IMG/VR virus record: IMGVR_UViG_3300020581_000009
Coordinates: 22,611-86,610 of that record
From: a virus
Lineage: Duplodnaviria; Heunggongvirae; Uroviricota; Caudoviricetes
Length of the DNA: 64,000 nucleotides
Reading direction: 5' to 3' (one strand)
How positions within the stretch are numbered: the stretch's first letter is position 1; every line of letters starts with the position of its first letter. Below, piece after piece: positions 25,886-41,502 of the stretch. The notes under the pieces were generated by a model. The model saw only the letters and a list, made by a program, of their open reading frames with translations. It had not been told where the DNA came from and made no database searches. The translations under genes and the position numbers were made by a program.

Positions 25886-26224
25886 CTACCGCATGGAGTT
25901 AGACCGGGAGGCTTGCAAGCGATCCCATTGTCTACTGAACCTCTCTGGCCCCGAGCGCGGACCATGGATTTTCGCTCGGTTTCTCCCATTAGGAGCCGGT
26001 CTCCGTGACCGATAAAGCCTTTGAGGACTTCGACCGTCTAACCCCGTGTCAAGGTCTCCTTCAATGGCTTTAACCGCAAGTGCCACAGAATGTGGGATAG
26101 GCGTCTGCCCGGTCACATATCGCCAGATCGTGACCGGGTCGAGGTGTAATGCGCGGGCGAGAGGCGCTTTCCACTTGCGACCGTAAAGCTTCCGCCCGAT
26201 TCGCTCGAACTCAGTAGGCGTCAT
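25886..26224 (-). CDS. HTH (Cro/CI-like) DNA-binding protein, 3' end altered by IS insertion
   Basis: LARALHLDPVTIWRYVTGQTPIP; stop codon lies 5 bp inside IS right IR. Confidence 0.5.
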   Translation of the reverse strand: MTPTEFERIGRKLYGRKWKAPLARALHLDPVTIWRYVTGQTPIPHSVALAVKAIEGDLDTGLDGRSPQRLYRSRRPAPNGRNRAKIHGPRSGPERFSRQWDRLQASRSNSMR

Positions 26225-27801
26225 CCACGTACGAAGTCCGCAATGACGGCCGGCGCCGAAGCGTCAAAGCCCACACAATCCAGCATCCCGGCATCGGTTG
26301 GATCCGCGATCGAGAATCCCGTGCTGGTGAATCCAATCACGACGAGCTTTGCATTGATACCCGTCTTGTTCCGATAGTCCTGCAATGCAATGACCGGGTG
26401 AACTGCGCCCGCCCAACATTCGTTGTCAGTTTGCACGACAAAGGTGTCCACTTTCAGATCGTTACGAAGTGCATACAGCATCGGCAACGAGCAGTCTGTG
26501 CCGCCGCCGTTGATGTCGGACGTTTTCTCCGTGACGGTCGCAAGCGACATCTTGGCTGTGATGCCGAGGTCTCTCATCCCGTGGTCGAAGGCGAGGACAT
26601 GCCAGTTATTTTCGGTTCGCATGGTGACCATCGCCATTGCGGCTGAGGCTTCAGCGACCGTCAGAGACGACCCCATGAACGGAGAGCACATGGAACCAGA
26701 CACATCCAACCCAATTAGGGTACGCTTCCCGGTTGGCTCCACGTTCTGGAACGCCAGATAGAACGCATTGTCCAGCGCGTCGAGGATCGTCGGCACCGGC
26801 TCCCATTTGAGCGCACCTTTCACGCCGTGTCCGCTACGGTAGACTGCCAAAGCTTGGAGCACGTTGAACGGGTGAACACGCGACTTGCGGATTTCCTCCC
26901 CGAGAGACAGGCGGTTTACGACAAGAGCCGTATCGTCACTCAGCGGCTTCAGTGCACCGATGGAAGTCATCTTGCCCAGGTTGCGAATCAGTGCCGTGAG
27001 GCCAAGATTCGGCAGCATGGCGGACCATACCTTGGGATTCGTCGTGGCCTCAGTCGGGATCGCCTCCCATGGGAGGTTGTATTCGCGAATCACGGCAAGA
27101 AGCTCAGACTCGTCATTGGTCTGCATGGCATAACGGTGGGCCTGAAGAATTCCCGGTACACCGAGAGGATCGAAATCCTTCCCGCAGATCCAGTTGTAAA
27201 GCGCCGCCTTCTCCGGAGTTCCGTCAGACTTCGGGTGCGCGCTCTGAAGCATACGCTTATGGGTGTAGTTCTCCCGTGCACGGTATTTGATGGCTTGATA
27301 CGCCAGCTTGTCGGCGCTCTTTGATTCGTACCACCTTGCAACGGCCCGCTTGAGCGTGCGGCCCCATCCACGCTTGAGAGCGCGAACGGTATCAACGAAC
27401 TGGAACAGGTGAGTCGAGGTGCGGCAGACCAGCGGGAGAGCGTTCAGCGCAAGTCTGCGAACGTTGACATCCGCATGAACGGCACCGAGAGCCAGCGCAA
27501 AGATGGCCGGATCATTCTTTGGTGCGCGGCCGGATTCGGAGATATTCACGATAACTGCCACGGTTCGCTCGGCATCCAAGCCGTAGCAGCGCTCGACGCA
27601 CTTCGCGTTCTCGCGGGTGAGTGCCTTGGCGTTCTGATAAAAAGTGTTGGAGTCCGATCCTAGAATCAGGAATCGGTCTAAGCGCGTCCAGTCAGACACG
27701 GCAAAGACGAAGCCCTTCGCGTTGTTGAGGACTTGCCGCTCGTTCAGCGGCTCAGTCTGCGGGATCGGCGCGGTCGCAAGGCGTGCGTATCTGGACATCA
27801 T
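26221..27801 (-). CDS. rsr: Ro60-related protein Rsr (TROVE domain + C-terminal vWA)
   Basis: about 525 aa; vWA MIDAS LIGLDVSGSM in C-terminal third; overall architecture of bacterial Ro60 orthologs; ATG pair at 27801/27798. Confidence 0.75.
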   Translation of the reverse strand: MMSRYARLATAPIPQTEPLNERQVLNNAKGFVFAVSDWTRLDRFLILGSDSNTFYQNAKALTRENAKCVERCYGLDAERTVAVIVNISESGRAPKNDPAIFALALGAVHADVNVRRLALNALPLVCRTSTHLFQFVDTVRALKRGWGRTLKRAVARWYESKSADKLAYQAIKYRARENYTHKRMLQSAHPKSDGTPEKAALYNWICGKDFDPLGVPGILQAHRYAMQTNDESELLAVIREYNLPWEAIPTEATTNPKVWSAMLPNLGLTALIRNLGKMTSIGALKPLSDDTALVVNRLSLGEEIRKSRVHPFNVLQALAVYRSGHGVKGALKWEPVPTILDALDNAFYLAFQNVEPTGKRTLIGLDVSGSMCSPFMGSSLTVAEASAAMAMVTMRTENNWHVLAFDHGMRDLGITAKMSLATVTEKTSDINGGGTDCSLPMLYALRNDLKVDTFVVQTDNECWAGAVHPVIALQDYRNKTGINAKLVVIGFTSTGFSIADPTDAGMLDCVGFDASAPAVIADFVRG

Positions 27802-27810
27802 TCTCTCCTC

Positions 27811-27854
27811 TGCCAATATCGTTAGAGAACACAGGCTCTACAACGATATTGGCA
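27811..27854. promoter_or_regulatory. perfect 13-bp inverted repeat TGCCAATATCGTT-N18-AACGATATTGGCA at rsr start
   Basis: seen directly; operator-like. Confidence 0.5.
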
Positions 27855-27859
27855 GATAG

Positions 27860-28010
27860 ACGGAAACGAATGAGGATCGGTGTTTTGGCGGCTGCTCTAA
27901 CCACTGAGCTATTCTAACTTGCGTCAGAAGTTGGATTCGAACCAACGACCCGCTGCTTATGATAACCGAATACCTCCGGGGCTCGCTTCCTCCTATCTGC
28001 CGTTTAACGA
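27860..28010 (-). ncRNA. tRNA-like fragments, candidate Y RNA-like (YrlA-type) RNA upstream of rsr
   Basis: D-arm-like GCTCTAACCACTGAGC+TA+TTCTAAC (27894-27918) and T-arm-like GTTGGATTCGAACCAAC (27930-27947) that do not assemble into one canonical tRNA. Confidence 0.2.
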
Positions 28011-28249: not shown

Positions 28250-28323
28250 TGGCGAAAGTGGAAGGTGTCGAACCCTCGTTTTCGGTTTTGGAGACCGACG
28301 TTCTACCGTTGAACTACACTCCC
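28250..28323 (-). tRNA. tRNA-Trp(CCA)
   Basis: manual fold: TGG+acceptor, T-arm GAAGG-TGTCGAA-CCCTC, anticodon loop CUCCAAA, D-arm GTTC/GAAC. Confidence 0.5.
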
Positions 28324-28324
28324 G

Positions 28325-28396
28325 TACAGACGGGTGGAGTCGAGCCACAACTTGCGCGCGGTTCACAGCCGGCGCCCCAAGCCCTTGGTCGTCTGC
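28325..28396 (-). tRNA. tRNA-like, identity undetermined
   Basis: T-arm GGTGG-AGTCGAG-CCACA and paired acceptor ACAGACG/CGTCTGC; anticodon arm not resolved. Confidence 0.25.
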
Positions 28397-28400
28397 GTAT

Positions 28401-28479
28401 TGGTAGCGGTGGCTGGCTACGATCCAGCGTTCTCCGGTTTATGGGACCGGCGCTTTAGTCCAAGCTAAGCTACACCGCC
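28401..28479 (-). tRNA. tRNA with CAU anticodon (Met or Ile2-type), atypical T-loop AUCGUAG
   Basis: acceptor AGCGGTG/CACCGCC, T-stem GCTGG/CCAGC, anticodon stem CCGGT/ACCGG. Confidence 0.4.
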
Positions 28480-28556
28480 ATATTGGCAACGGGCGTTGAA
28501 AGTCGAATCAACATCCTAAGTTTCAAAGACTTAGTACCTGACCACAGGAACCCGCC

Positions 28557-28799
28557 ATGAGTCGAATTGTCGTATGGAACGAGCCGCTCTGTCTTGATGA
28601 GGGCCATGTGTTAAATTCTGTAGTACGAGCAACCGAGGAAGATATTGTTCACTTGATGCAGCATAATTTCCCAGAAAGAGCTTATTCTTACGACGACGCG
28701 CTGGACGACTTTATGGTAGTCCATTGGGCGTGGTTTGAGGAAGTGGTGCCTCCTGACGGTACCGCCACGCTCACTACGGAACAGCGCCGTGAGAAGTGA
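28557..28799 (+). CDS. hypothetical protein
   Basis: 80-aa ORF between tRNA genes. Confidence 0.35.
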   Translation: MSRIVVWNEPLCLDEGHVLNSVVRATEEDIVHLMQHNFPERAYSYDDALDDFMVVHWAWFEEVVPPDGTATLTTEQRREK

Positions 28800-28818
28800 A
28801 TTAAACCGCGAAACGGTA

Positions 28819-28896
28819 TGGAGCCGCCAGCGGGAATCCAACCCGCGATGTTCGGGAGTGAAGGTCCCGCACCCTTGGCACCCAGGCGATGGCGGC
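28819..28896 (-). tRNA. tRNA-Glu(UUC)-like, T-loop UUGGAUU
   Basis: perfect acceptor GCCGCCA/TGGCGGC; T-stem GCGGG/CCCGC; anticodon stem CGGGA/TCCCG. Confidence 0.4.
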
Positions 28897-28972
28897 AGAT
28901 TTAGGCCCTTGACTTTCTTAACCGTATAGCATATTTCCCGTTTAGCCAATTCCGGCCATACAGGATTATGCT

Positions 28973-29725
28973 ATGACCAAAAAGACCAAAACCGCTGAAA
29001 ATACGCTTGTTACCTTCTTGCTCGACCGCTCCGGATCAATGGGTTCGTGCCGCGAATCAACCATCGAGGCGTTCAACGGCTATATCGAATCCCTCCGCAC
29101 GGCGCCGGTCTCATTCACCTTCCTCCAGTTTGATTCGGAGTCGCTGGATAAGGTCCATTTCGAGAAGCCCATCAAAGATGTCCCGGACCTCAGCATGGCG
29201 ACCTACCAGCCACGGGGCGGAACCCCCCTGATCGAGGCGGCAACCAAGACCATCCAGGCGCTCGAAACCGCCCTCAAGGCCAAGACCGAGAAGCCGAAGG
29301 TCGTCGTCTGCATTCAGACTGACGGCGAGGAGAACCAAAGCGGCCGAGAATATACGTGGCAGGCGCTTAAGGATCTCATCGCAGCCAAGACCGCCGAAGG
29401 CTGGCAGTTCAACTTCATGGGCGCCGGCATCGACGCTTACGACCAAGGATCGAAGATGGGCATCTCGGCGGCGGCAACCATGAGCTACGATAGCACCGAC
29501 AAAGTTGCGACTCGTGCTGCTTTCGCCGCCAGCGGTCACAATACGATGTTGTACGCATCGGGATTTGCTGCATCAACGGATTATTCCGCATTGCAGAAAA
29601 TGGCTTCGGGCGACAAGTTCGATCCCAACCTCAAGATACCCACTCTCAAGCCGGTGAAGGTGTCTTCTTCGGTGAAGCTTGACCTTGGCGGCAAGAAGTC
29701 TAGCGGGCTCGACCTGACACAGTGA
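28973..29725 (+). CDS. von Willebrand factor A domain protein
   Basis: MIDAS motifs DRSGSM, GGTPL, TDGEEN. Confidence 0.75.
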   Translation: MTKKTKTAENTLVTFLLDRSGSMGSCRESTIEAFNGYIESLRTAPVSFTFLQFDSESLDKVHFEKPIKDVPDLSMATYQPRGGTPLIEAATKTIQALETALKAKTEKPKVVVCIQTDGEENQSGREYTWQALKDLIAAKTAEGWQFNFMGAGIDAYDQGSKMGISAAATMSYDSTDKVATRAAFAASGHNTMLYASGFAASTDYSALQKMASGDKFDPNLKIPTLKPVKVSSSVKLDLGGKKSSGLDLTQ

Positions 29726-29991
29726 CCAGACGCGACCGCTACGACTCTGAGTTCGGTGCCTCGGTGAGCCAAGCGCTTGCCGAGGCAAAGATCAATCAGG
29801 CCGAACTCGCCGTGCGATCCGGAATGTCGCCGTCATACCTCAATCAGACCATGACCGGGAGAAAGCATATCCCAACCAAGTGGATCGACGTTGTTGCGGA
29901 ATCTCTCGGTCTACAAGATGCACAGCGAAAGCGGCTGCACCTCGCCGCCGCAAAGGATGCCGGGTACGATATCGACTTGACGAAGGAATGA
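29722..29991 (+). CDS. XRE-family HTH protein
   Basis: INQAELAVRSGMSPSYLNQTMTGRK; GTGA overlap with vWA gene. Confidence 0.55.
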   Translation: MTRRDRYDSEFGASVSQALAEAKINQAELAVRSGMSPSYLNQTMTGRKHIPTKWIDVVAESLGLQDAQRKRLHLAAAKDAGYDIDLTKE

Positions 29992-30066
29992 TGGAGCGGA
30001 GTGAGAGAATCAGACTCTCGTCTTTGGTTTGGAAGACCACTGCTCTGTCATTGAGCTAACCCCGCG

Positions 30067-30154
30067 TGGCGGAAGCAGGAGGATTTGAACCTCCGGTACC
30101 GTTAGGTACTTCGGTTTAGCAAACCGATGCAATAGGCCACTCTGCCATGCTTCC
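30067..30154 (-). tRNA. tRNA-Ser(GCU)
   Basis: perfect acceptor GGAAGCA/TGCTTCC, T-arm GGAGG-ATTTGAA-CCTCC, long variable arm, anticodon loop UUGCUAA; CCA encoded. Confidence 0.6.
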
Positions 30155-30159
30155 GTTAG

Positions 30160-30236
30160 TGGCGATCCCGGCAAGACTCTAACTTGCGACAACCGGTTTA
30201 GGAAACCAGTGCTCTATACATCTGAGCTACGGGACC
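30160..30236 (-). tRNA. tRNA-Arg(CCU)
   Basis: acceptor GATCCCG/CGGGACC, T-stem GCAAG/CTTGC, anticodon loop UUCCUAA; unusual T-loop UUAGAGU. Confidence 0.45.
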
Positions 30237-30241
30237 GTGAT

Positions 30242-30317
30242 TGGAGACCCAGGCGTGAATCGAACACGCGACCTCTTGCTTAGAAGGCAAAGACTCTTTC
30301 CACTGAGTTACTGGGCC
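30242..30317 (-). tRNA. tRNA-Arg(UCU)
   Basis: acceptor GACCCAG/CTGGGCC, T-arm GCGTG-AATCGAA-CACGC, anticodon loop CUUCUAA, D-arm ACTC/GAGT. Confidence 0.55.
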
Positions 30318-30318
30318 G

Positions 30319-30567
30319 TTACCAAAAGTAGTTATGCGGCTTCTTGCTAACCGGCCAAGTCGCGTTGTCCGCGTCGATCTTGCCCAGCAAAACCGCTCTA
30401 GTCGTCTCCATGGCGCGGCGACGATGCGGTCTACGGTGAAACACGATGTCCCACCACGCAGGCCAGTTGTTCAGCCAGCGATACTCGTTGCCAAACTCTT
30501 TTGCACGCCATTTGTCGAAGCGATTGCCGCGCACTCTCGTCCGCGACCGCTTGCGTTTGTGGTTCAT
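30319..30567 (-). CDS. hypothetical highly basic small protein
   Basis: MNHKRKRSRTRVRGNRFDKWRAKEF...; upstream structured region. Confidence 0.25.
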   Translation of the reverse strand: MNHKRKRSRTRVRGNRFDKWRAKEFGNEYRWLNNWPAWWDIVFHRRPHRRRAMETTRAVLLGKIDADNATWPVSKKPHNYFW

Positions 30568-30829
30568 GACACCTTAGCTCCATGTTGGTCACTAACGTGT
30601 CATGGTCGGATCCTTTCAAGGGTTGGAGTAGCAGGCCGGTGCCTACCCGGCTCAATAGCGGTTTTGCAGACCGCCGCGTTCACGTTTCGCCACTGCTACG
30701 TTAAGGCTCGGCCAAGGGTCCCTTCGGTCTTTTCCCCGGCTGGGGTAAAGCACTAGGCGTTTCCGGTTTCCCTATGCGCGCCACGCCACGGCGCCGGCTC
30801 TGCCTGGGTGGTTGATAGCATATCGTGAA

Positions 30830-30905
30830 TGGCAGGGGAAGAGAGGATCGAACTCCCGACATCGGCGTCCAGAGCGCCGCGCTACTACCGCTGAGCTATT
30901 CCCCA
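30830..30905 (-). tRNA. tRNA-Gln(CUG)
   Basis: T-arm GAGAG-GATCGAA-CTCCC, perfect anticodon stem CGGCG/CGCCG, loop CUCUGGA. Confidence 0.5.
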
Positions 30906-30912
30906 TCAAAGA

Positions 30913-30987
30913 TGGTCGGGGCACGGCGATTCGAACGCCGGACCTCACGCTTCCAAAGCGCGAACTCTACCGCTGAGCTATACCCCG
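30913..30987 (-). tRNA. tRNA-Pro(UGG)
   Basis: T-arm CGGCG-ATTCGAA-CGCCG, acceptor CGGGGCA/TACCCCG, anticodon loop UUUGGAA. Confidence 0.6.
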
Positions 30988-31299
30988 TTGATTCCGTCTA
31001 AATTATGTGAGACACTAACCGCGTCCAAATCTCTATCTCAAACGCAAGGAGTACACGCCCCAAAAACGCACCGCAAGTCCTAGTCAGGGCGGCCGGGCGC
31101 GAACCACGTCCGGCCGCAATAATGTGGCGATCCCGGCAAGAGGGCTACCGAAATGAGCAACAAGATTACTACCGGACCAGAAATTGCGTTGGCGCTTGCG
31201 ATGCGGGCTGGACTGGAAGGCGTTGCCTTCTCCCAGGTGTCTATGGGACACTGGACCCCAGAGTTTTATGCAGAGAGATGTCGCGTCATTAAGGATAAA

Positions 31300-31376
31300 T
31301 GGCGACCCACCGAGGAATCGAACCCCGAACCATCAGATTCGTAGTCTGGCGCTCTGTCCATTTGAGCTAGTGGGCC
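31300..31376 (-). tRNA. tRNA-Arg(ACG)
   Basis: acceptor GACCCAC/GTGGGCC, T-loop AATCGAA, D-arm GCTC/GAGC, anticodon loop CUACGAA. Confidence 0.5.
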
Positions 31377-31380
31377 GTAA

Positions 31381-31458
31381 TGGTACGGTCGGCGGGCTAC
31401 GATCCCGCGTTTCCCGGATGAGGGCCGGGGTTCCTTGTCCGATCTAGAAGACGACCGC
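31381..31458 (-). tRNA. tRNA with CUC anticodon (Glu-type), atypical T-loop AUCGUAG
   Basis: homologous in T-arm and D-loop to 28401-28479; anticodon stem CCCGG/CCGGG. Confidence 0.35.
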
Positions 31459-31465
31459 GTAAATG

Positions 31466-31549
31466 CTGAAGGGGCAGGATTCGAACCTGCGACGGGCTTT
31501 CGCCAACTGATTAACAATCAGACCCCTGCTACCGCTCGGGTACCCTCCA
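31466..31549 (-). tRNA. class II (long variable arm) tRNA, identity undetermined
   Basis: canonical T-arm GCAGG-ATTCGAA-CCTGC, acceptor TGAAGGG/CCCTCCA, 3-bp D-stem CCC/GGG. Confidence 0.35.
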
Positions 31550-31558
31550 TCGCATTTG

Positions 31559-31630
31559 TGGTGGAGAAACGGAGAGTTGAACTCCGGACGGCAGCCGTGC
31601 AAAGGGTGCCTGTGGCCCGCCACTTTCCCC
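31559..31630 (-). tRNA. tRNA-like, identity undetermined
   Basis: TGG, acceptor GGAGAAA/TTTCCCC, T-arm CGGAG-AGTTGAA-CTCCG. Confidence 0.3.
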
Positions 31631-31757
31631 GAATCAAACAGCCGACCGGTGCTGCGAGACACCGGCCGGCTTGGAAAGCCAATCGAGTTTACCTGCGCCG
31701 GCTTGTTCCGTAGCCGTGACCGTATTGGAACAGCAGGATTGCCCGAAAGGCTACTCT

Positions 31758-32080
31758 TTACGCCGGGTTGGCGGTAGTCGCCGTGGTGAGGTCGGACGTG
31801 GCCTTCTCGACCTTCGCCGCCAGGGCATCAACTGCCGGCTGGATGTCCGCTGGTGCCGCTGCCTTGAGGGCTGCGATGTCGGCGGAAAGTCCCGTCAGAT
31901 CCGTTACAGCCGCAGCAACAGCGGCGGTGAGTGCATCAACGTCAGTGGTAAGCTTGCTGAGATCAGCCATGATGGTGTCAACCTTTCGAGTGAGAGCGTG
32001 CAATAGGGCATTGTTGCGGGTGGCGTAGAACTCGATACGCTCAAGCCTCGCGTCGTCTACGTCTGTACCGAACCATCCCA
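31758..32080 (-). CDS. hypothetical coiled-coil protein
   Basis: Ala/Thr/Asp-rich heptad-like repeats; internal Met start. Confidence 0.35.
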
Positions 32081-32562
32081 TGGGGTTATATACTCGCTTT
32101 TTGTGACGGTTGCAAGACGCGAAATGGTGCCTCGGCGCCGTTTCGAGCGGCGATCTTCCGTGCTTCAAACGGACGTGTGGAACCACCATCACCACCGAGG
32201 CGAGCAGCATCCCGGTAACGATCCGGGTCCTACACGTTGGCAACGTGTCGTGCTACCTTTAGCACCAATGCTGCATATTGGTCGGCAACCCGCGAATCGA
32301 ACGCGGCATGTCAAAGACGCAGGTTTTACAGACCCGCTCAGTCACCAGACTTGGCGTTGCCGTAAGTATGCACGGGGCCGTAGTGTCCTCACCACCGTAC
32401 CGTGCCGCCATCGTTATCCCTGATGGCTCGGGAAAAGTGCGTCGGCTTGTACTCCGTCGCGTGCGCCGATTTACATCCGATCTGGCGCAGAATTTAGCGG
32501 CCGGTCTGAGGTCTAGCCTCAGTCCCTCGCCCCGGCCGGCGAGGTACGACGCGCGTCGTAGG

Positions 32563-32835
32563 TCATTCTGGCCACACTCCTAATCCCATGTCCTGAAGCC
32601 CTTGAAGTAACTCGGCCTCGGTCATGTAAGATGGCGGTGAAGTGTGGGCCTGATCCACATGCCTTTGCGGGGCACCAGCGGGTTTCGAATCCGTGTCAGG
32701 GGCCTCCCTGATTACTTCACCAATCTCTCCTTGGCAGCAATAATCAAATCTATGGCCGCCGCAGGTAAGGCAGGGAAGGACCGCGCCGTTTAGGCGCAGC
32801 ATAGTCCCCATGCCATGGCATGTTTCGCAAATCAT
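32563..32835 (-). CDS. hypothetical Cys-rich small protein
   Basis: CETCHGMG...CLTCGG; ATGA overlap with HNH gene. Confidence 0.35.
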   Translation of the reverse strand: MICETCHGMGTMLRLNGAVLPCLTCGGHRFDYCCQGEIGEVIREAPDTDSKPAGAPQRHVDQAHTSPPSYMTEAELLQGLQDMGLGVWPE

Positions 32836-33323
32836 GGGTTAACCCATCCCCAAATATTCCCACGCCGAATCAACGACACTGTAGCGTGATGCACGCCAAA
32901 TAATTCTGCTATTTCTGTATTCATCTTGCCGTCTTTAATTAGTGATTTGATGACAACAACTTGAGACTGGAGCAATTTGCTGCGTGGATTTTTTTCTCCG
33001 TTCTGAAAACTATTATTCAAGCTTGCCCGACCCTTAGCATATGCTTCAAGTATATTGTCGCTACAGGTTCCCTCGCGCAGGTGCTCTGGATTGATGCAAG
33101 GCGGATTATCGCATGAATGAAGAACCATAAGGCTAACATCATCGACAGAAATGCCGCGATTGACGGCGTAAGAAACTCTATGGGTCAAGTAGTCTTTCCC
33201 ACCAAACTTTATCTTTCCGTAGCCGCTTTTGTTTCTACCTCCCGACCATTCCCAGCAGCCATTGGGAGCAATAGCGATCTTGGAGGCGAGATAGGTTCTG
33301 AGGTCTTTAATCTTTCTTGGCAT
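32832..33323 (-). CDS. HNH homing endonuclease with C-terminal HTH
   Basis: GYGKI...HRVSY...HSCDNPPCINPEHL HNH_3-type; TEIAELFGVHHATVSLIRRG HTH. Confidence 0.7.
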   Translation of the reverse strand: MPRKIKDLRTYLASKIAIAPNGCWEWSGGRNKSGYGKIKFGGKDYLTHRVSYAVNRGISVDDVSLMVLHSCDNPPCINPEHLREGTCSDNILEAYAKGRASLNNSFQNGEKNPRSKLLQSQVVVIKSLIKDGKMNTEIAELFGVHHATVSLIRRGNIWGWVNP

Positions 33324-33339
33324 GAAACCTCATATTATC

Positions 33340-33427
33340 TGGCGGAACCGAGGTGATTCGAACACCTGATACCTTGCGGTATGCCGCCTTTCCAGGGCGG
33401 TGCCTTCAGCCTCTCGGCCACGGTTCC
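33340..33427 (-). tRNA. tRNA-Ser(GGA)
   Basis: perfect acceptor GGAACCG/CGGTTCC, T-arm AGGTG-ATTCGAA-CACCT, variable-arm hairpin ATACC/GGTAT, anticodon loop CUGGAAA. Confidence 0.6.
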
Positions 33428-33466
33428 TTTGATTCGCAGAGTATCAGTTTGTGCCTCGCAGTCAAG

Positions 33467-33550
33467 TGGCGGAGAGCGATGGAGTCGAGCCATCAACCTT
33501 GCGGTTGGCCTGGGTTTCAGGTCCAGTTCGCGCCCCGCGCGCCGCTCTCC
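33467..33550 (-). tRNA. tRNA-Ser(UGA)-like (class II)
   Basis: perfect acceptor GGAGAGC/GCTCTCC, T-stem GATGG/CCATC, anticodon stem CTGGG/TCCAG. Confidence 0.45.
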
Positions 33551-33554
33551 CTAT

Positions 33555-33629
33555 TGGCGACCTCCGCAGGATTCGAACCTGCATCCTCAAGATTCGGAAT
33601 CTTGTGCTCATCCATTGAGCTAGGAGGCC
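33555..33629 (-). tRNA. tRNA-Arg(CCG)
   Basis: T-arm GCAGG-ATTCGAA-CCTGC, anticodon arm CAAGA-TTCGGAA-TCTTG, D-arm GCTC/GAGC. Confidence 0.6.
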
Positions 33630-33871
33630 TTTGACTGAGAGCGACCCAGCGGCGCTTTTTGTGGTACGCCGCATTCCGTGTTGACGGTAACCAACACCCA
33701 GCGCAATGCTGTCCCCCTGATCCAGCCACGAACCTCTACTTCTAATCTCTTCTCAGCTTCGCATCTCGTCTCTGGCAACGGTGGCTCAAAATCAGTGCGG
33801 ACCCATTCAGAGTCGGTGTGTGAATTGCGATATTCGTACTCGAAATGTCTTCCGGCGATCTCGCGCATATG

Positions 33872-34249
33872 CTATGCTCCGTGCTGCTCGAAAAATCGTG
33901 ATCTGAACGGCTGGTCCGCCCTAGTAGCCCGATTCGGATAGTATGCACCCATTCCCGATGTCCAGGCAATCAAACTGTCGTCAGCCAGGATGACTTTGTC
34001 CATTGCCCGCGTCATAGCCAACGCAAGGTTGTAAGTGTCAGGACTGCACGGATTGATGTATAACACCCAGATGTCGATGGGGACCGTGATCGGGATTTTG
34101 ATCGCTGCCGCCTTAAAGGCCTCCACAAGCGCCTCCCGGTACTTCTGGATGACCTTATAATGCTGCCGGTAGTGCGGAGCCCCATGGATGTATAACCGAA
34201 GCCTGGGCAACGGCTCGTCGGATGGATGGTATTCTGCGATGATGCGCAT
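33872..34249 (-). CDS. RusA-like Holliday junction resolvase
   Basis: DTYNLALAMTRAMDKVILADDSLI resembles RusA D.DN..K...DAL....DD motif. Confidence 0.45.
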   Translation of the reverse strand: MRIIAEYHPSDEPLPRLRLYIHGAPHYRQHYKVIQKYREALVEAFKAAAIKIPITVPIDIWVLYINPCSPDTYNLALAMTRAMDKVILADDSLIAWTSGMGAYYPNRATRADQPFRSRFFEQHGA

Positions 34250-34268
34250 GGTCGTATCCTATCATGGG

Positions 34269-34358
34269 GTGGTCGGCGCTACGTGGATCGAACACGTCCG
34301 TCTACGGTAATCAGCCGCTCCGGGTTTATAAGGCCCAGCCGCACCCAGTGCTAGCGCC
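34269..34358 (-). tRNA. class II tRNA (90 nt), identity undetermined
   Basis: perfect acceptor CGGCGCT/AGCGCCG, T-arm ACGTG-GATCGAA-CACGT, variable hairpin CCG/CGG. Confidence 0.35.
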
Positions 34359-34386
34359 GCTCTGAAAAACGTGATACCAATATTAG

Positions 34387-34782
34387 ATGCACAACCAAGA
34401 AAATGACGACTGGTTTTTGGCCGCAGTCTCTAGCGGTCACATTTCAGTATCCGAAGATGGGAAAGTTTTTAACCACAAGACCAATAGATACATTGGCGCA
34501 GTTGGCAGCGGTAGATATCCAAAAATTTCTCTCTCTGTTGGGCGAAAAGAAATTCGCCATATGCAAATACACCGTCTAGTGTGGTTGGTTTATCGTGGTA
34601 AAATTTCACAAGAAGTTGAAATTAACCATAAGGATACCAACACCAACAATCCATCTCTGCTAAACCTTGAATTAATTACCCCTAGCGGCAATAGATTGCA
34701 CGCTATTGCAAACGGCCGTCCCGGATATCTTTTCCAAAAAGGAAACAAATCATCACGCAAAACGAAAGTCATTGACAAATAA
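34387..34782 (+). CDS. HNH homing endonuclease (AT-rich gene within tRNA array)
   Basis: INHKDTNTNNPSLLNLELITPSGNRLH; local GC clearly lower than surroundings. Confidence 0.6.
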   Translation: MHNQENDDWFLAAVSSGHISVSEDGKVFNHKTNRYIGAVGSGRYPKISLSVGRKEIRHMQIHRLVWLVYRGKISQEVEINHKDTNTNNPSLLNLELITPSGNRLHAIANGRPGYLFQKGNKSSRKTKVIDK

Positions 34783-34786
34783 AAAG

Positions 34787-34863
34787 TGGTCGGCGCGGCA
34801 GGCTTCGATCCTGCGACAACCCGGCTCCGGACCGGGGACTCTACCAGACTGAGCTACGCGCCG
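34787..34863 (-). tRNA. tRNA-Pro(CGG)
   Basis: perfect acceptor CGGCGCG/CGCGCCG, anticodon stem CCCGG/CCGGG, loop UCCGGAG; T-loop AUCGAAG. Confidence 0.55.
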
Positions 34864-34867
34864 TAAG

Positions 34868-34941
34868 TGGCGGTCCTAGGGGGTATCGATCCCCCGTCGA
34901 TCGGTTGACAACCGAGTACTCTACCTTTGAGCTATAGGACC
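34868..34941 (-). tRNA. tRNA-Asp(GUC)
   Basis: perfect acceptor GGTCCTA/TAGGACC, T-stem GGGGG/CCCCC, anticodon loop UUGUCAA. Confidence 0.55.
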
Positions 34942-34942
34942 G

Positions 34943-35021
34943 TATGGCCGGGGAGAATCGAACTCCCATGGTTTCCCACGGCGACCTCAACGCCGCGCGT
35001 CTGCCGTTCCGCCACAGCCAC
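34943..35021 (-). tRNA. tRNA-Leu(GAG)-like
   Basis: T-arm GGGAG-AATCGAA-CTCCC, 11-nt variable arm, anticodon stem CGGCG/CGCCG loop UUGAGGU, 3-bp D-stem GCG/CGC. Confidence 0.45.
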
Positions 35022-35029
35022 GTAAAACT

Positions 35030-35104
35030 TGGAGGGTGCTAGGTGAATCGAACACCTGACAAGAGGGTTAAGAAGCCTCTGTTCTTCCACTGAACTAAGC
35101 ACCC
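35030..35104 (-). tRNA. tRNA-Lys(CUU)
   Basis: perfect acceptor GGGTGCT/AGCACCC, T-arm AGGTG-AATCGAA-CACCT, D-arm GTTC/GAAC. Confidence 0.5.
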
Positions 35105-35365
35105 GAGGATTCCGGAAGTTCTGCCCTTCTTGCGACGCGGGTTAAAAAGCCGGCCCAGAGACTACTCTGATTTACGCTCGGAATCCGAATGGACCCCGAA
35201 CCGTTTAAGTGGATCGCTCATGTTGTTTACTCCATATTGGTGCAAGCGGGAGGTACTGCCCCTCCTATCAGACGCTCATCAGGCGCCGTCTTCGCTTCTC
35301 AGACTCGCTTGCGGTGAAATGGTGCTTCCGATACCTTGGAGAGGCATGACCTTCGCCATGTCGCG

Positions 35366-35438
35366 GCGACGGTGAGGGTCACGATCCCCCGACATCCTGC
35401 GTGTAAAACAGGCGCTCTCCCAACTGAGCTAACCGCCC
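35366..35438 (-). tRNA. tRNA-Val(UAC)-like, T-loop AUCGUGA
   Basis: D-arm GCTC/GAGC, anticodon loop UUUACAC, acceptor with 1-72 mismatch. Confidence 0.4.
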
Positions 35439-35444
35439 ATGAAG

Positions 35445-35522
35445 TGGTGCCGCAGGCGGGTGACGATCACGCGCGGAACCGTTTTTAGGACGGATCCCTC
35501 TGCCAACCTGGGGTACTGCGGC
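35445..35522 (-). tRNA. tRNA with UAA anticodon (Leu codon UUA) but class I architecture, T-loop AUCGUCA
   Basis: perfect acceptor GCCGCAG/CTGCGGC; only about 5-nt variable region. Confidence 0.4.
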
Positions 35523-35526
35523 GTAT

Positions 35527-35604
35527 TGGTGCCCAACCGGGAGATCGAATCCCGACACACCGGATTTTGAATCCAGTCGCTTTGCCTGTTTTGCGTAGTT
35601 GGGC
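35527..35604 (-). tRNA. tRNA with CAA anticodon (Leu) but short variable region
   Basis: perfect acceptor GCCCAAC/GTTGGGC, T-arm CGGGA-GATCGAA-TCCCG; anticodon stem imperfect. Confidence 0.35.
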
Positions 35605-35609
35605 GTGAG

Positions 35610-35687
35610 TGGTAGCCGACCCCGGTCTCGAACCGGGACTGGACGGAGTCTGGATCCGTTCCCTCTTCCAAATTGGGGTAGTCGGCC
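35610..35687 (-). tRNA. tRNA with CAG anticodon (Leu) but short variable region
   Basis: T-arm CCCGG-TCTCGAA-CCGGG, perfect anticodon stem ACGGA/TCCGT, acceptor AGCCGAC/GTCGGCC. Confidence 0.4.
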
Positions 35688-35693
35688 GTTGAA

Positions 35694-35766
35694 TGGTGCC
35701 ACCAGCAGGTTCGAATCTGCATCCCCCTCATTACCAGTGAAGGACTCTACTTTGAGCTATGGCGGC
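35694..35766 (-). tRNA. tRNA-Thr(GGU)-like
   Basis: acceptor GCCACCA/TGGCGGC, D-arm like the Asp tRNA; T-loop appears 6 nt. Confidence 0.35.
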
Positions 35767-35771
35767 AAACT

Positions 35772-35846
35772 TGGTTCCGAGTAGACGAATCGAACGCCTG
35801 CACCCAGTTTACAAAACTGGACCTCTGCCACTGAGGATAACCCGGA
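35772..35846 (-). tRNA. tRNA-Thr(UGU)
   Basis: T-loop AATCGAA, perfect anticodon stem CCAGT/ACTGG loop UUUGUAA, D-arm CCTC/GAGG. Confidence 0.5.
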
Positions 35847-36410
35847 TCAAAGAGTCTTCGCGGGGCGGGGCACGACTGCCGCTGTTTTTCTCGCTGGGCG
35901 AAACGTGGCTTGGGGCGCGTGGCGACCCACCGCGAATTGGAGCCATCAGGTTGATTTGAACAACCATTGCCACCGTACGAAGGGGGTCTCCTACCATTGG
36001 AGGATGACGGCGTTAAAATGAACAAACCGGGCGGACCATTACGATCCGCCCGAATTTCATGATGTCCCCAGCGCGCACAGTTAAGCCGCTTCTCCGACGC
36101 GGAGGAGATAGTGGTCGTCCCGCCTGAGGGGGCCACTATATCTCAATCACCGACTTCCCCTGATTGGTAGCAGGGGCGACTAAATATGCACTCAACAGCA
36201 CAAAAAACGCCATAATGCGCTCTTGAGTGTATATCTGCTTGGGTCTTTGGTGGTGGTTTTGGGCCTCCTCTTCCGCTTTTCGCGGGGGTCAGCCGCCGAA
36301 TCAACTTGGTAGTTTTTGCCTGAATTCGGGCTGCATATGCACGCTATACGACCGCCAGGAGCTATTCGGCCCGGCGGCGATGGTCGTATCTGTGGCACGC
36401 ACTATCGAGT

Positions 36411-40517: not shown

Positions 40518-40897
40518 GCTACGTCTCTATCTTCTTCCATTGCCTGACATGATAGCGGCGGATTTGCCAACTCAAGAAGAATATCCGCGTGGCACGGCTG
40601 GTCCGGCTTGCAAAAACAGGCAAGATTTTTACCATGCAGCGGCGCTATATACGCCTCATAGTCCGCCGGTCGATGCTTCATCATATCGTCCATGTGCCAT
40701 TTGAAAAACATGACCTGAACACGCGGGTCACCAATATCCCACGATACCGGCTTTCCATCGTCGTTGATTCGCCCGTAGCCTAAACCGCATCCGGGATGAT
40801 ACGGATTACCGTACTTCCCTGGCCGCGTTACGCTCACCGTATTTAACGGCATTCGCCAGCCCTTGACACGGCGACGTTGAATGCGGACTGGCATCAA
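40514..40897 (-). CDS. DUF4326-like protein
   Basis: GKYGNPY...LACFCKPDQPCHADILL. Confidence 0.45.
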   Translation of the reverse strand: MMPVRIQRRRVKGWRMPLNTVSVTRPGKYGNPYHPGCGLGYGRINDDGKPVSWDIGDPRVQVMFFKWHMDDMMKHRPADYEAYIAPLHGKNLACFCKPDQPCHADILLELANPPLSCQAMEEDRDVA

Positions 40898-41502
40898 AAG
40901 TCGCCCTCGGCAATTTGTGCCACAGGAATGCCGGCCGCGCGTATGGCTTGAACCACTCTCGCCCTGTCATCGAACCAAAGCACAGGCTCGTACCCATCCG
41001 CACGCAGATCGGCCAGAAGCTCAATCTTCAACTCATGGTCTGGCTTGTGGTCTCCAGCCTTGCGCATGTAGAGCCGACCAAACGGCGCCCCGTGAGAATT
41101 GAGCCACATTTCCGTTTCGCGCCTAACTTCATCGCTGCGGCCAGAGACATAAATGACAGTCTTTCCGGCGCCCATCTTGAGGTTCCACGCCAGATCAAGC
41201 ATATAGCCGATTGGCTTGTCATCGACGCAATCCGCGAAGAACGCGCGCCAATCCTTTTTGTCGCCCTGAATATGATGCAGCCGGTGCGTGATGTCGGCTA
41301 GAGTCCCGTCCAGATCAAATACATATACGAGTTGCATGGTCACACCAACGTTAGTTGCGGGTCGTTCGATATCCTCGACATTACTTGCGGACTGAACATC
41401 CATGATGGCACCTTTGGGAACTCGCGAATCATCAAATCTTTTGGAATGGCCTTCTTTCCAGTCATCTGCTTCGTGAAGTAGCTTACGTCCGCAATCAAAC
41501 AT
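40894..41502 (-). CDS. HAD-superfamily phosphatase (PNK 3'-phosphatase-like); true start probably at MQLVYVFDLDGTL (~41334)
   Basis: motif I VYVFDLDGTLAD; distal GDHKPD and FDDRARV motifs. Confidence 0.55.
   Translation of the reverse strand: MFDCGRKLLHEADDWKEGHSKRFDDSRVPKGAIMDVQSASNVEDIERPATNVGVTMQLVYVFDLDGTLADITHRLHHIQGDKKDWRAFFADCVDDKPIGYMLDLAWNLKMGAGKTVIYVSGRSDEVRRETEMWLNSHGAPFGRLYMRKAGDHKPDHELKIELLADLRADGYEPVLWFDDRARVVQAIRAAGIPVAQIAEGDF

What the first reader, a model, noticed from the sequence alone, without database searches (positions are those of the whole stretch)
35445..35687. Three adjacent tRNAs with leucine anticodons (UAA, CAA, CAG) but class I architecture
Bacterial and phage tRNA-Leu are class II with a 13-21 nt variable arm. 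These three have a variable region of only about 5 nt between T-stem and anticodon stem and a large D-loop instead. The separate Leu(GAG)-like gene at 34943-35021 has an 11-nt variable arm. If the folds are right, these either are charged by a non-Leu synthetase (recoding/decoy) or are a novel Leu architecture. Acceptor stems are perfect or near-perfect in all three.
Basis: inference. Interest (0 to 1): 0.55.

Follow-up and report, generated by a model that had tools for sequence, protein, structure and literature searches.

The report
Short-armed leucine tRNAs in phage
Three neighbouring phage tRNA genes for leucine really do lack the long extra arm that textbook leucine tRNAs carry, but this short-armed type turns out to be common in phages and in actinobacteria, so the finding is real yet ordinary.

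Summary
ARAGORN calls three 78-nt tRNAs on the minus strand: Leu(UAA) 35445-35522, Leu(CAA) 35527-35604 and Leu(CAG) 35610-35687. Each has a 4-5 nt variable loop, a 3-bp D stem with an 11-12 nt D loop, A73 and an encoded CCA.

The interpretation (recoding, decoy or novel architecture) is not supported. Short-variable-loop ("type I") tRNA-Leu is a large existing family:
- It is annotated in GenBank phages of Pseudomonas, Erwinia, Vibrio, Streptomyces and Bacillus.
- It made up 13 of 50 tRNA-Leu in IMG/VR loci picked with a non-Leu motif, against 0 of 34 tRNA-Ser.
- It occurs mostly as lone chromosomal genes, largely in Actinomycetota.
- Streptomyces coelicolor LeuRS is shown to leucylate it (Fan et al. 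2019).

A covariance model built only from IMG/VR members ranks the three copies 1st, 2nd and 5th among the array's tRNAs. They keep the E. coli-type leucine identity set (A73, U8/A14, G18G19, R15-Y48). A related phage contig carries positional orthologues with many compensatory stem changes.

Most likely they are ordinary leucine-accepting tRNAs in a roughly 30-gene array of a probable alphaproteobacterial phage. Charging was not tested. The odd details are C33 in two copies, conserved in the orthologue of the CAG copy, and an A54/U58 T loop in one.

The parts
35610..35687 (-). tRNA-Leu(CAG), type I: 5-nt variable loop CCAGU, G1.U72, A73, encoded CCA, and anticodon loop UCCAGAC with C33.
   Evidence: ARAGORN. 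It is the best hit of the type I Leu covariance model R1 in the array, at 67.2 bits. Rfam's tRNA model gives no hit at E<=1. All 25 of its nearest neighbours are class-I-sized tRNA-Leu. Its positional orthologue, Leu(UAG) in L363, also has C33 and carries compensatory stem changes.
35527..35604 (-). tRNA-Leu(CAA), type I: variable loop UGUGU or GUGU, canonical anticodon loop UUCAAAA, T loop UUCGAUC, A73, encoded CCA.
   Evidence: ARAGORN. Scores are 47.4 bits with Rfam tRNA and 54.7 bits with R1, the second-best hit. The minimum-energy fold is the cloverleaf, z = -3.26. A positional orthologue, Leu(CAA), is present in L363.
35445..35522 (-). tRNA-Leu(UAA), type I and the most deviant copy: anticodon loop CCUAAAA (C33), T loop AUCGUCA (A54/U58), one U.C mismatch in the T stem, one U.U at the base of the anticodon stem, and G15-C48 where the other two copies have A15-U48.
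   Evidence: ARAGORN. R1 scores it 47.6 bits, the fifth-best hit. Rfam tRNA gives no hit at E<=1. Of its 25 nearest neighbours, 24 are class-I-sized tRNA-Leu. No orthologue was found in L363 or L003.
34942..35021 (-). tRNA-Leu(GAG) with a minimal 10-11 nt variable region (UGGGAAACCAU, a 3-bp stem capped by GAAA), U8 G9, A73 and no encoded CCA. It is the fourth leucine isoacceptor of the array.
   Evidence: ARAGORN and Rfam tRNA at 46 bits. The same 80-nt gene is conserved in L003 with a compensatory acceptor-stem change. In L363 the GAG gene is instead 77 nt with a 4-nt variable loop.
28250..36011 (-). The tRNA array that contains the three genes. ARAGORN makes 28 calls at default settings, and there are several weaker tRNA-like elements. 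Genes are packed 0-9 nt apart in blocks, with HNH endonuclease ORFs interspersed.
   Evidence: for the tRNAs; for the HNH ORFs at 32832-33323 and 34387-34782.
36027..36053 (-). Terminator-like hairpin (12-bp stem followed by a T run), downstream of the primase gene and just upstream of the first tRNA of the array.
   Evidence: Consensus scan only. Four terminator-like sites were found in this region against 2.8 expected from shuffles, so this part is weak.

Best explanation
The three genes are functional leucine tRNAs of the widespread short-variable-loop (type I) tRNA-Leu family. They sit in the large tRNA array of a phage that probably infects an alphaproteobacterium.

Proposed mechanism: they are transcribed with their neighbours, cut out by host RNase P and 3' processing enzymes (the CCA is already encoded), and leucylated by the host LeuRS. 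[quoted passage not shown] The charged tRNAs then decode UUA/UUG, UUG and CUG. Together with Leu(GAG), the array covers five of the six leucine codons.

Shown here: the fold, the family membership, the conservation with compensatory changes, and the presence of the identity nucleotides. Inferred: expression, charging with leucine and use on the ribosome.
For: 1. The fold and the anticodon position are confirmed by ARAGORN and by alignment to an independent covariance model.

2. Family membership. Model R1 was built from 60 IMG/VR short tRNA-Leu, none from this window. In that alignment 97.6% of cells pair and 19 of 20 pairs covary. R1 scores the copies 67.2, 54.7 and 47.6 bits, ranking them 1st, 2nd and 5th among the array's tRNAs. 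Where both scores are available, these are the only tRNAs that score higher with R1 than with Rfam's general model: 47.4 bits for the CAA copy and no hit for the other two. By contrast the Arg, Pro, Lys and Thr tRNAs score 7-20 bits lower with R1.

3. Nearest neighbours. Among 1188 tRNAs of all isotypes, 24-25 of the 25 closest to each copy are class-I-sized tRNA-Leu. Arg and Lys controls retrieve mainly their own isotype (13 and 8 of 25).

4. The body type is tied to Leu anticodons. The D-arm motif TANCCCAAYTGGYAGAGG sits in tRNAs with Leu anticodons in 113 of 115 viral cases and 110 of 110 genomic cases. Of 110 genomic loci, 92 held a single tRNA gene, and most loci are from Actinomycetota.

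5. Identity elements. A73 is present in all three copies and in 149 of 154 family members. U8, A14 and G18G19 are present. The Levitt pair is A15-U48 in the CAG and CAA copies and the compensated G15-C48 in the UAA copy (read from the sequences). The review PMC9976931 states that E. coli leucine identity rests on A73, A15-U48, G18G19 and A20a, and that the long arm is dispensable.

6. Biochemical precedent. S. coelicolor type I tRNALeu(CAA) is leucylated by its LeuRS with kcat/Km 6.25 s-1 uM-1 (PMC6614811).

7. The isotype pattern matches synthetase rules. In IMG/VR loci picked with a non-Leu motif, 13 of 50 tRNA-Leu have a variable loop of 6 nt or less. None of 34 tRNA-Ser do, and SerRS needs the arm.

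8. Purifying selection. Relative L363 carries Leu(UAG) and Leu(CAA) genes of 77 nt at the same place, between Thr(GGU) and Val(UAC). Across the six genes 18 of 20 stem pairs change on both sides.

9. Demand. All six Leu codons are used in window ORFs (TTG 18%, CTG 18%, TTA 6%). The array is a near-complete decoding set.
Against: Charging was not tested and the host is unknown.

Fan et al. report that E. coli LeuRS did not charge the S. coelicolor type I tRNALeu(CAA), and that a particular leucine-specific domain was needed. Acceptance by a proteobacterial LeuRS therefore cannot be taken for granted.

Two of the three copies have C33 instead of the near-universal U33, which is U in 151 of 154 family members. 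The UAA copy also has an A54/U58 T loop (the family has T54-A58 in 153 of 154) and two stem mismatches. Rfam's tRNA model misses those two copies.

R1 is not strictly isotype-specific: two very canonical Arg tRNAs score 53.7 and 48.1 bits.

Relative L003 lacks the three genes altogether, so they are dispensable within the clade.
Confidence: 0.75

Rival explanations
1. Defence-evasion variants. The tRNAs are leucine acceptors, but the short arm and the C33 and A54/U58 substitutions are selected because they make the phage copies poor substrates for host tRNA-targeting nucleases or toxins. Such enzymes read the anticodon loop or the long variable arm. The phage copies would then replace host tRNALeu that is depleted during infection. 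This adds a selective reason to the main explanation rather than replacing it.
For: C33 is present in 6 of the 28 array tRNAs, including two of the three Leu genes. It is retained in L363 Leu(UAG), whose loop UCUAGAC matches UCCAGAC in the window apart from the wobble base, while the stems have diverged by compensatory changes.

A54 T loops occur in 7 of 28 tRNAs, five of them with U58. The clade also varies the variable arm in other isotypes: a long-armed Asn in the window and long-armed Lys in L003 and L363.

The literature supports the general idea. Phage tRNAs carry anticodon-loop changes predicted to block anticodon nucleases (PMC10264068). The toxin MenT3 uses the long variable loop of tRNASer as a determinant (PMC11541572). 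Relative L006 encodes Pnkp and two RNA ligases, and the window encodes a PNKP-phosphatase protein.
Against: No tRNA nuclease that targets tRNALeu through the long arm is known for the unidentified host. Type I tRNALeu is also a normal chromosomal gene in Actinomycetota, so the short arm needs no defence rationale. C33 is rare in the wider family, at 2 of 154. No experiment bears on this.
Confidence: 0.2
2. One or two of the copies (UAA, CAG) are decaying or non-functional duplicates. ARAGORN still recognises them, but they no longer work in translation.
For: Rfam's tRNA model does not reach E<=1 for the UAA and CAG copies. Both have C33. The UAA copy also has a non-canonical T loop (AUCGUCA), a U.C mismatch in the T stem and a U.U at the base of the anticodon stem. 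Relatives L003 and L363 lack a Leu(UAA) gene at this position.
Against: The acceptor stems are intact, and A73 and CCA are present. The CAG copy is the best hit of the family model at 67.2 bits, and its C33 is shared with the L363 orthologue despite many compensatory stem changes. The UAA copy keeps a compensated Levitt pair, G15-C48. The A54/U58 T loop recurs in four other tRNAs of the array, which argues for a tolerated or selected variant rather than random decay.
Confidence: 0.1
3. Recoding or decoy. The tRNAs would be charged by a non-leucine synthetase so that Leu codons are read as another amino acid. Alternatively they would stay uncharged and act as decoys or regulators.
For: Only indirect evidence exists. 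E. coli LeuRS failed to charge a type I tRNALeu in vitro (PMC6614811). The array contains other tRNAs whose shape does not match their isotype, such as the long-armed Asn.
Against: The D-arm body type co-occurs with Leu anticodons in 223 of 225 motif-bearing tRNAs from phages and bacteria. Most of the bacterial ones are lone chromosomal tRNA genes, mainly in Actinomycetota, and the S. coelicolor member is known to be charged with leucine.

The window copies have C3-G70 rather than G3:U70, so they lack the AlaRS determinant. They have no long arm for SerRS and no G-1 for HisRS. Their anticodons match no anticodon-reading synthetase other than the Leu family (sequences; identity rules from PMC9976931). 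No synthetase gene is evident among the window ORFs scanned.
Confidence: 0.03

Closest known systems
Type I (short-variable-loop) tRNALeu of Actinomycetota, for example S. coelicolor tRNALeu(CAA) (Fan et al. 2019, NAR, PMC6614811)
   Same: It has a Leu anticodon on a class I body: a 4-5 nt variable loop ending in U48, U8 A9, a 3-bp D stem with a CAAYUGGYAGA-type D loop, and A73. The window genes fall into this sequence family by covariance-model score and by nearest neighbours.
   Different: The window genes are phage-borne, clustered three in a row, and come from a phage whose host is probably an alphaproteobacterium (GcrA homologue) rather than an actinobacterium. Their D loops deviate from the consensus motif by one or more bases. 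Two copies have C33 and one has A54/U58.
Short tRNA-Leu genes annotated in cultured phages: Pseudomonas phages Amme-3 and phiPsa374, Erwinia phage Hena2 (Ounavirinae), Vibrio phage phiKT1024, Streptomyces phage Daubenski and Bacillus phage vB_BcoS-136
   Same: They are 74-79 nt tRNA-Leu with a 4-6 nt variable loop, A73 and often G1.U72, and they lie inside phage tRNA arrays. The 3' half of the window's CAG copy is 90% identical to that of Amme-3 Leu(CAA).
   Different: There is no close sequence relationship overall: no megablast hit and only 30-nt matches at E about 0.2. The GenBank examples checked all have U33 and a TTCRA T loop.
Canonical bacterial and phage class II tRNALeu, for example E. 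coli tRNALeu, phage T5 tRNALeu(UAG) of 85 nt, and the Brevundimonas phage Marchewka tRNALeu genes of 86-88 nt
   Same: They share A73, the 3-bp D stem with a large D loop containing G18G19, and the Leu anticodons. The same LeuRS identity set is presumably used.
   Different: The window genes have no variable stem-loop (4-5 nt against 13 nt or more). They have U8 A9 where the class II examples inspected have U8 G9.
Animal mitochondrial tRNALeu
   Same: It is a class I-shaped tRNALeu recognised through A73 and A14 without a long arm (PMC9976931).
   Different: It belongs to an unrelated lineage with degenerate D and T loops. S. coelicolor LeuRS does not charge the human mitochondrial tRNALeu(UUR). 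The window genes keep canonical G18G19 and, in two of three copies, a canonical T loop.

Membership tests
Type I (short-variable-loop) tRNALeu family | Leu anticodon (NAG or YAA) at positions 34-36 of a 7-nt anticodon loop | tested here: met
   ARAGORN places UAA, CAA and CAG at positions 34-36. The R1 alignment puts them at the same model positions.
Type I (short-variable-loop) tRNALeu family | Variable loop of 4-5 nt with no stem (144 of 154 family members have 4 or 5 nt) | tested here: met
   The loops are 4-5 nt in all three copies.
Type I (short-variable-loop) tRNALeu family | U8 A9, a 3-bp D stem and an 11-12 nt D loop with A14, R15, G18G19 and an ARA ending | tested here: met
   The D arms read TA-CCC-CAGGTTGGCAGA-GGG, TA-CGC-AAAACAGGCAAA-GCG and TA-CCC-CAATTTGGAAGA-GGG, against the family consensus TAGCCCAATTGGCAGAGGC. 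None matches the 18-nt search motif exactly, and the CAA copy is the most diverged.
Type I (short-variable-loop) tRNALeu family | Discriminator A73 (149 of 154 members) and a Levitt pair 15-48 (A15 and U48 are invariant in alignment A2) | tested here: met
   A73 is present in all three copies. The Levitt pair is A15-U48 in the CAG and CAA copies and G15-C48, a compensated change, in the UAA copy.
Type I (short-variable-loop) tRNALeu family | Scores with a family covariance model above the other tRNAs of the same genome, and above the general tRNA model | tested here: met
   R1 gives 67.2, 54.7 and 47.6 bits, ranking the copies 1st, 2nd and 5th among the array's tRNAs. Rfam RF00005 gives no hit, 47.4 bits and no hit for the same copies. 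All other array tRNAs with an Rfam score do worse with R1 than with Rfam. Caveat: two Arg tRNAs reach 53.7 and 48.1 bits with R1.
Type I (short-variable-loop) tRNALeu family | U33 and a T54-A58 T loop (151 of 154 and 153 of 154 members) | tested here: not met
   This is met only by the CAA copy. The CAG and UAA copies have C33, and the UAA copy has A54/U58. These are general tRNA features rather than features that define the family, and C33 is shared with the L363 orthologue.
Type I (short-variable-loop) tRNALeu family | Aminoacylation with leucine by LeuRS | not testable with these tools
   This has been shown only for S. coelicolor tRNALeu(CAA) with its own LeuRS; E. coli LeuRS did not charge that tRNA (PMC6614811).
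Canonical class II tRNALeu | Long variable arm (a stem-loop, 10 nt or more in all) | tested here: not met
   The variable loops are 4-5 nt, and folding finds no alternative long arm. Only the separate Leu(GAG) gene at 34942-35021 has a minimal 10-11 nt arm.
tRNA (Rfam RF00005) | Score at or above the gathering threshold of 29 bits | tested here: inconclusive
   The CAA copy scores 47.4 bits. The UAA and CAG copies give no match at E<=1, although ARAGORN, the R1 model and covariation all support a cloverleaf.
Anticodon-nuclease-resistant phage tRNAs (hypothesis of van den Berg et al. 2023) | Anticodon-loop substitutions, relative to the host isoacceptor, at or near a known nuclease cleavage or recognition site | not testable with these tools
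   C33 is present in two copies, but the host, its tRNALeu genes and its nucleases are all unknown.

The most novel reading that the evidence does not exclude
This alphaproteobacterial phage clade may systematically remodel tRNA shape as a counter-defence against host enzymes that recognise tRNA architecture or the anticodon loop. The changes seen are:
- loss of the extra arm from up to four leucine isoacceptors;
- insertion of tetraloop-capped (GAAA or UUCG) extra arms into Asn and Lys tRNAs;
- replacement of the near-universal U33 by C;
- replacement of T54-A58 by A54-U58.

On this reading the three type I tRNALeu genes, two of them with a conserved C33, would be nuclease-proof substitutes for host tRNALeu.
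Probability: 0.2. Interest if true: 0.55.

Novelty: new member of a known kind. Interest (0 to 1): 0.25.

Why it matters
The result corrects a textbook assumption rather than opening a new field. A scan that flags every short-armed tRNA-Leu as anomalous will fire often, because roughly a quarter of phage tRNA-Leu in the sample taken here are of this type (13 of 50).

One question remains genuinely open, for this phage and for the many proteobacterial phages that carry the same type. Proteobacterial LeuRS enzymes may or may not charge type I tRNALeu: E. coli LeuRS failed on the Streptomyces one in vitro. If they do, it is unclear what advantage the short arm brings.

The conserved C33 and the variable-arm plasticity in this clade offer a small, testable entry point into how phage tRNAs diverge at positions that are almost invariant in cells.

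Tried and rejected
**Searches for close relatives**
- Megablast of 34700-36100 against GenBank phages found nothing. A distant blastn gave only single-tRNA-sized hits to other isotypes.
- A distant blastn of the three genes alone gave six 30-nt hits at E 0.2-0.8. These were useful only as the lead to the Amme-3 phage.
- The primase as a single query found nothing in IMG/VR.
- A primase alignment searched against JGI metagenomes and IMG/VR returned only relatives at 48% identity or less. These carry at most four tRNAs and no short tRNA-Leu (for the metagenome set; the IMG/VR set was not scanned separately).
- The T-arm/acceptor pattern GTCCCGGTTCGAGNCCGGGGTYGRCTACCA gave no hit in IMG/VR.
- The contigs of the closest primase homologues, P0001 (82% identity) and P0004 (81%), are too short to reach the tRNA array.

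**Leads that did not hold up**
- Phage T5 was checked as a possible precedent. Its tRNALeu(UAG) is 85 nt and class II.
- Full-text literature searches found no paper that describes phage type I tRNALeu as such.

**Interpretations rejected**
- The anticodon is not misplaced, and there is no hidden long arm.
- The mechanical ORFs that overlap the genes (35379-35702 and 35429-35731, minus strand) are not credible as coding sequence, given the tRNAs.
- No synthetase is evident among the window ORFs scanned. The ORF scan was not exhaustive.
Full report
**What is there**

ARAGORN finds 28 tRNA genes in the window, all on the minus strand between 28250 and 36011. The three flagged genes lie at exactly the stated coordinates: Leu(UAA) 35445-35522, Leu(CAA) 35527-35604 and Leu(CAG) 35610-35687. 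They are separated by 4-6 nt from each other and from their neighbours, Val(UAC) and Thr(GGU).

The ARAGORN drawings and bracket strings give the same plan for all three. Each is 78 nt with an encoded CCA and A73. The acceptor stem has 7 bp, all Watson-Crick in two copies and G1.U72 plus six Watson-Crick pairs in the CAG copy. Each also has U8 A9, a 3-bp D stem, an 11-12 nt D loop containing GG, a 5-bp anticodon stem, a 7-nt anticodon loop, a variable loop of only 4-5 nt, and a 5-bp T stem.

The fourth leucine gene, Leu(GAG) at 34942-35021, has a 10-11 nt variable region, UGGGAAACCAU. This can form a 3-bp stem capped by a GAAA tetraloop.

Single-sequence folding finds no hidden long arm, and the CAA copy folds into the cloverleaf as its minimum-energy structure (z = -3.26). 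Rfam's general tRNA model recognises only the CAA copy (47.4 bits). It does not reach E<=1 for the other two.

**Context**

The window is phage DNA. It encodes:
- a terminase large subunit, an AAA ATPase, a primase and a helicase, with the primase immediately upstream of the array;
- SSB, an ERF recombinase, a lysozyme and an MT-A70 methylase;
- HNH endonuclease ORFs inside the tRNA array, as in the phage T5 tRNA region.

A GcrA homologue at 45880-46350, together with GcrA genes in two relatives, points to an alphaproteobacterial host. That inference rests on my own knowledge of the taxonomic range of GcrA.

No closely related genome exists in the GenBank phage collection. Primase homologues at 62-69% identity led to three related metagenomic contigs: L003, L006 and L363.

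**Is a class I tRNA-Leu unusual? No.**

Weak BLAST hits of the three genes led to Pseudomonas putida phage Amme-3. Its annotated tRNA-Leu genes are 79 and 77 nt long with 5-nt variable loops and A73.

Using the 77-nt Amme-3 tRNA-Leu(UAG) gene as a query found annotated 74-78 nt tRNA-Leu genes in several other phage groups:
- the P. syringae phiPsa374 group;
- Streptomyces phages such as Daubenski;
- Vibrio phage phiKT1024;
- Erwinia phage Hena2 (Ounavirinae);
- Bacillus phage vB_BcoS-136.

These genes share a D-arm motif. Of the 115 tRNAs that contain the motif, 113 have Leu anticodons, and all are 74-78 nt long.

The 154 distinct short Leu tRNAs in those loci have these features:

| Feature | Count (of 154) |
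|---|---|
| A73 | 149 |
| U8 A9 | 143 |
| Variable loop of 4 or 5 nt | 144 |
| U33 | 151 |
| T54-A58 | 153 |
| G1-C72 | 79 |
| G1.U72 | 56 |

All 110 motif-bearing tRNAs there have Leu anticodons: UAA 54, CAA 34, UAG 10, CAG 8 and GAG 4. Of the 110 loci, 92 held a single tRNA gene. Most are from Actinomycetota, including Nocardia, Mycobacterium, Gordonia, Rhodococcus, Corynebacterium, Bifidobacterium and Amycolatopsis.

To get a frequency less biased by the search motif, I fetched 120 IMG/VR loci with a non-Leu D-arm motif. In those loci, 13 of 50 distinct tRNA-Leu have a variable loop of 6 nt or less. The figures are 0 of 34 for tRNA-Ser and 3 of 15 for tRNA-Tyr.

The literature agrees. Fan et al. 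(PMC6614811) showed that S. coelicolor has a type I tRNALeu(CAA) that its LeuRS leucylates. Behra et al. (PMC6582537) noted a short-variable-loop tRNALeu(TAG) in a mycobacterial tRNA gene cluster.

**Are the three window genes members of that family? Yes.**

I built a covariance model, R1, from 60 diverse IMG/VR members, none from this window. The structure of that alignment is strongly supported: 97.6% of cells pair and 19 of 20 pairs change on both sides.

I searched the array with R1 with filters off. Scores compare with Rfam's general model as follows:

| tRNA | R1 (bits) | Rfam RF00005 (bits) |
|---|---|---|
| Leu(CAG) | 67.2 (rank 1) | no hit at E<=1 |
| Leu(CAA) | 54.7 (rank 2) | 47.4 |
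| Leu(UAA) | 47.6 (rank 5) | no hit at E<=1 |
| Arg(CCG) | 53.7 | 66 |
| Lys(CUU) | 39.8 | 58.1 |

Where both scores are available, the three Leu genes are the only tRNAs of the array that do better with R1 than with Rfam.

In a global-alignment comparison with 1188 tRNAs of all isotypes, 24-25 of the 25 nearest neighbours of each copy are class-I-sized tRNA-Leu. Arg and Lys controls retrieve mainly their own isotype, 13 and 8 of 25 respectively.

**Evidence for function**

Relative L363 (primase 62% identical) has the same gene order: Thr(CGU), Thr(UGU), Thr(GGU), then Leu(UAG) and Leu(CAA) of 77 nt each, then Val(UAC). Its Leu(GAG) is also short, at 77 nt.

I aligned the three window genes with the three L363 genes. 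In that alignment 96.7% of cells pair and 18 of 20 stem pairs carry changes on both sides. None of 500 shuffles reaches this, and slid controls pair at only 33-44%. This is the signature of tRNAs kept under selection for the cloverleaf.

The leucine identity set established for E. coli consists of A73, U8-A14, G18G19, A20a and the 15-48 Levitt pair. The anticodon and the long arm are dispensable (PMC9976931). This set is present in all three window genes. Two copies have A15-U48, and the UAA copy has the compensated G15-C48 (sequences).

None of the three has G3:U70, a long arm or an extra 5' G, so the AlaRS, SerRS and HisRS routes are closed.

The contrast in isotype pattern, with short arms common in phage tRNA-Leu and absent from phage tRNA-Ser, is what the synthetase rules predict. 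SerRS needs the arm and LeuRS does not.

All six leucine codons are used in the window's ORFs. The four Leu tRNAs cover five of them.

**Best explanation and its limits**

The three genes are most likely ordinary leucine-accepting tRNAs of the type I family, charged by the host LeuRS (confidence 0.75). The fold, family membership, identity nucleotides and selection are shown. Expression and charging are inferred.

The main reservation is that Fan et al. found E. coli LeuRS unable to charge the Streptomyces type I tRNALeu in vitro. Acceptance by a proteobacterial enzyme is therefore plausible, given that many proteobacterial phages keep such genes, but it is unproven.

A second reservation is that two copies deviate at near-universal positions. 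The CAG and UAA copies have C33. The UAA copy also has an A54/U58 T loop, a U.C mismatch in the T stem and a U.U at the base of the anticodon stem.

These deviations do not look like random decay:
- C33 is shared by the L363 orthologue of the CAG copy. Its loop is UCUAGAC against UCCAGAC in the window, while the stems have diverged.
- C33 occurs in 6 of the 28 tRNAs of the array.
- A54 T loops occur in 7 of 28, five of them with U58.

They fit a clade-wide habit of non-canonical tRNAs, which L003 shows as well.

**Rival explanations**

- A counter-defence reading is attractive but untested (about 0.2, as an added selective rationale). Here shape and loop changes would make the phage tRNAs resistant to tRNA-targeting nucleases or toxins. 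It has precedent in PMC10264068 and in the variable-loop-dependent toxin MenT3.
- Pseudogenisation of the UAA and/or CAG copies is possible (about 0.1).
- Recoding by a non-Leu synthetase, or a pure decoy role, has no positive support (about 0.03).

**Verdict**

The feature is a new member of a known and, as it turns out, common kind. Interest is low to moderate. The remaining curiosity lies in the conserved C33 and in the variable-arm plasticity of this phage clade, not in the short arm itself.

Noticed in passing
window 31465-31549 (-): A tRNA with the Asn anticodon GUU has a class II shape. It is 85 nt long with a 3-bp D stem and a 14-nt variable region, GGCGAAAGCCCGUC (a 3-bp stem capped by GAAA), plus G73 and no encoded CCA. 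Its positional orthologue in L003 (15518-15591) is 74 nt and lacks the arm. In an IMG/VR sample, 16 tRNAs of normally class I isotypes had variable regions of 10 nt or more, 3 of them Asn.
   Followed up: partly
L003 12582-12763; L363 4217-4307: Relatives carry tRNAs with Lys anticodons and long variable stem-loops capped by UUCG or GAAA. L003 has UUU at 91 nt and CUU at 86 nt, and L363 has UUU at 91 nt. They have short (2-3 bp) D stems and U73. The window's own Lys(CUU) at 35030-35104 is a normal 75-nt class I tRNA, also with U73.
   Followed up: partly
window 28250-36011 (-), whole array: Six of the 28 ARAGORN tRNAs have C33 instead of U33: Met 28401, Glu(UUC) 28819, Glu(CUC) 31381, Pro(CGG) 34787, Leu(UAA) and Leu(CAG). 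Seven have A54, which makes the T loop read GATCG, and five of those also have U58: Met, Glu(CUC), Gly(GCC), Val and Leu(UAA). L003 shows similar deviations.
   Followed up: partly
window 26221-27816 (-) and 27891-27953 (-): A Ro60/TROVE plus vWA protein (PF25045 at 9e-66, PF05731 at 9e-42) lies at the end of the tRNA array. Just upstream of it is a weak match to the Y RNA-like family YrlA, at 30.7 bits against a gathering score of 69. This could be a phage-borne Rsr/Y-RNA module.
   Followed up: no
window 29992-30065, 30624-30699, 33467-33550, 34270-34359, 28484-28556 (-): There are further tRNA-like elements that ARAGORN misses at default settings. Gly(UCC) at 29995-30065 scores 57.8 bits with Rfam's tRNA model. 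Relaxed ARAGORN calls and weak R1 hits add Cys(GCA)-like, Ser(UGA)-like, a 90-nt Ile(UAU)-like and a Gln(UUG)-like element. The array may hold about 33 tRNAs, some of them degenerate.
   Followed up: partly
window 32832-33323 (-) and 34387-34782 (+): ORFs with HNH homing-endonuclease domains lie between blocks of tRNA genes. The first matches HNH_3 only below the Pfam cut-off (20.5 against 24.8 bits); the second scores 33.6 bits. The arrangement resembles the phage T5 tRNA region.
   Followed up: no
window 24606-25454 (+): An ORF carries an N-terminal HTH domain and an IS1-type DDE transposase domain. It may be an insertion sequence inside the phage genome.
   Followed up: no
window 40894-41502 (-); L006 12585-15256: The window encodes a protein with the PNKP phosphatase domain (PF25109 at 6.5e-26). 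Relative L006 encodes a Pnkp-like kinase/phosphatase followed by two RNA ligases (PF09414 and PF09511). These are the parts of a tRNA-repair pathway.
   Followed up: no
window 45880-46350 (-): A GcrA cell-cycle regulator homologue is present (PF07750 at 9.5e-30), as in relatives L003 and L006. This suggests an alphaproteobacterial host.
   Followed up: partly
window 61553-63769 (-): A 738-aa protein has a C-terminal 'InPase' domain (PF18823 at 1.1e-46). The rest of the protein has no Pfam match.
   Followed up: no
L363 4396-4472; L003 12771-12850; window 34942-35021: The Leu(GAG) gene switches form within the clade. It is 80 nt with a GAAA-capped mini arm in the window and in L003, but 77 nt with a 4-nt variable loop in L363.
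   Followed up: partly
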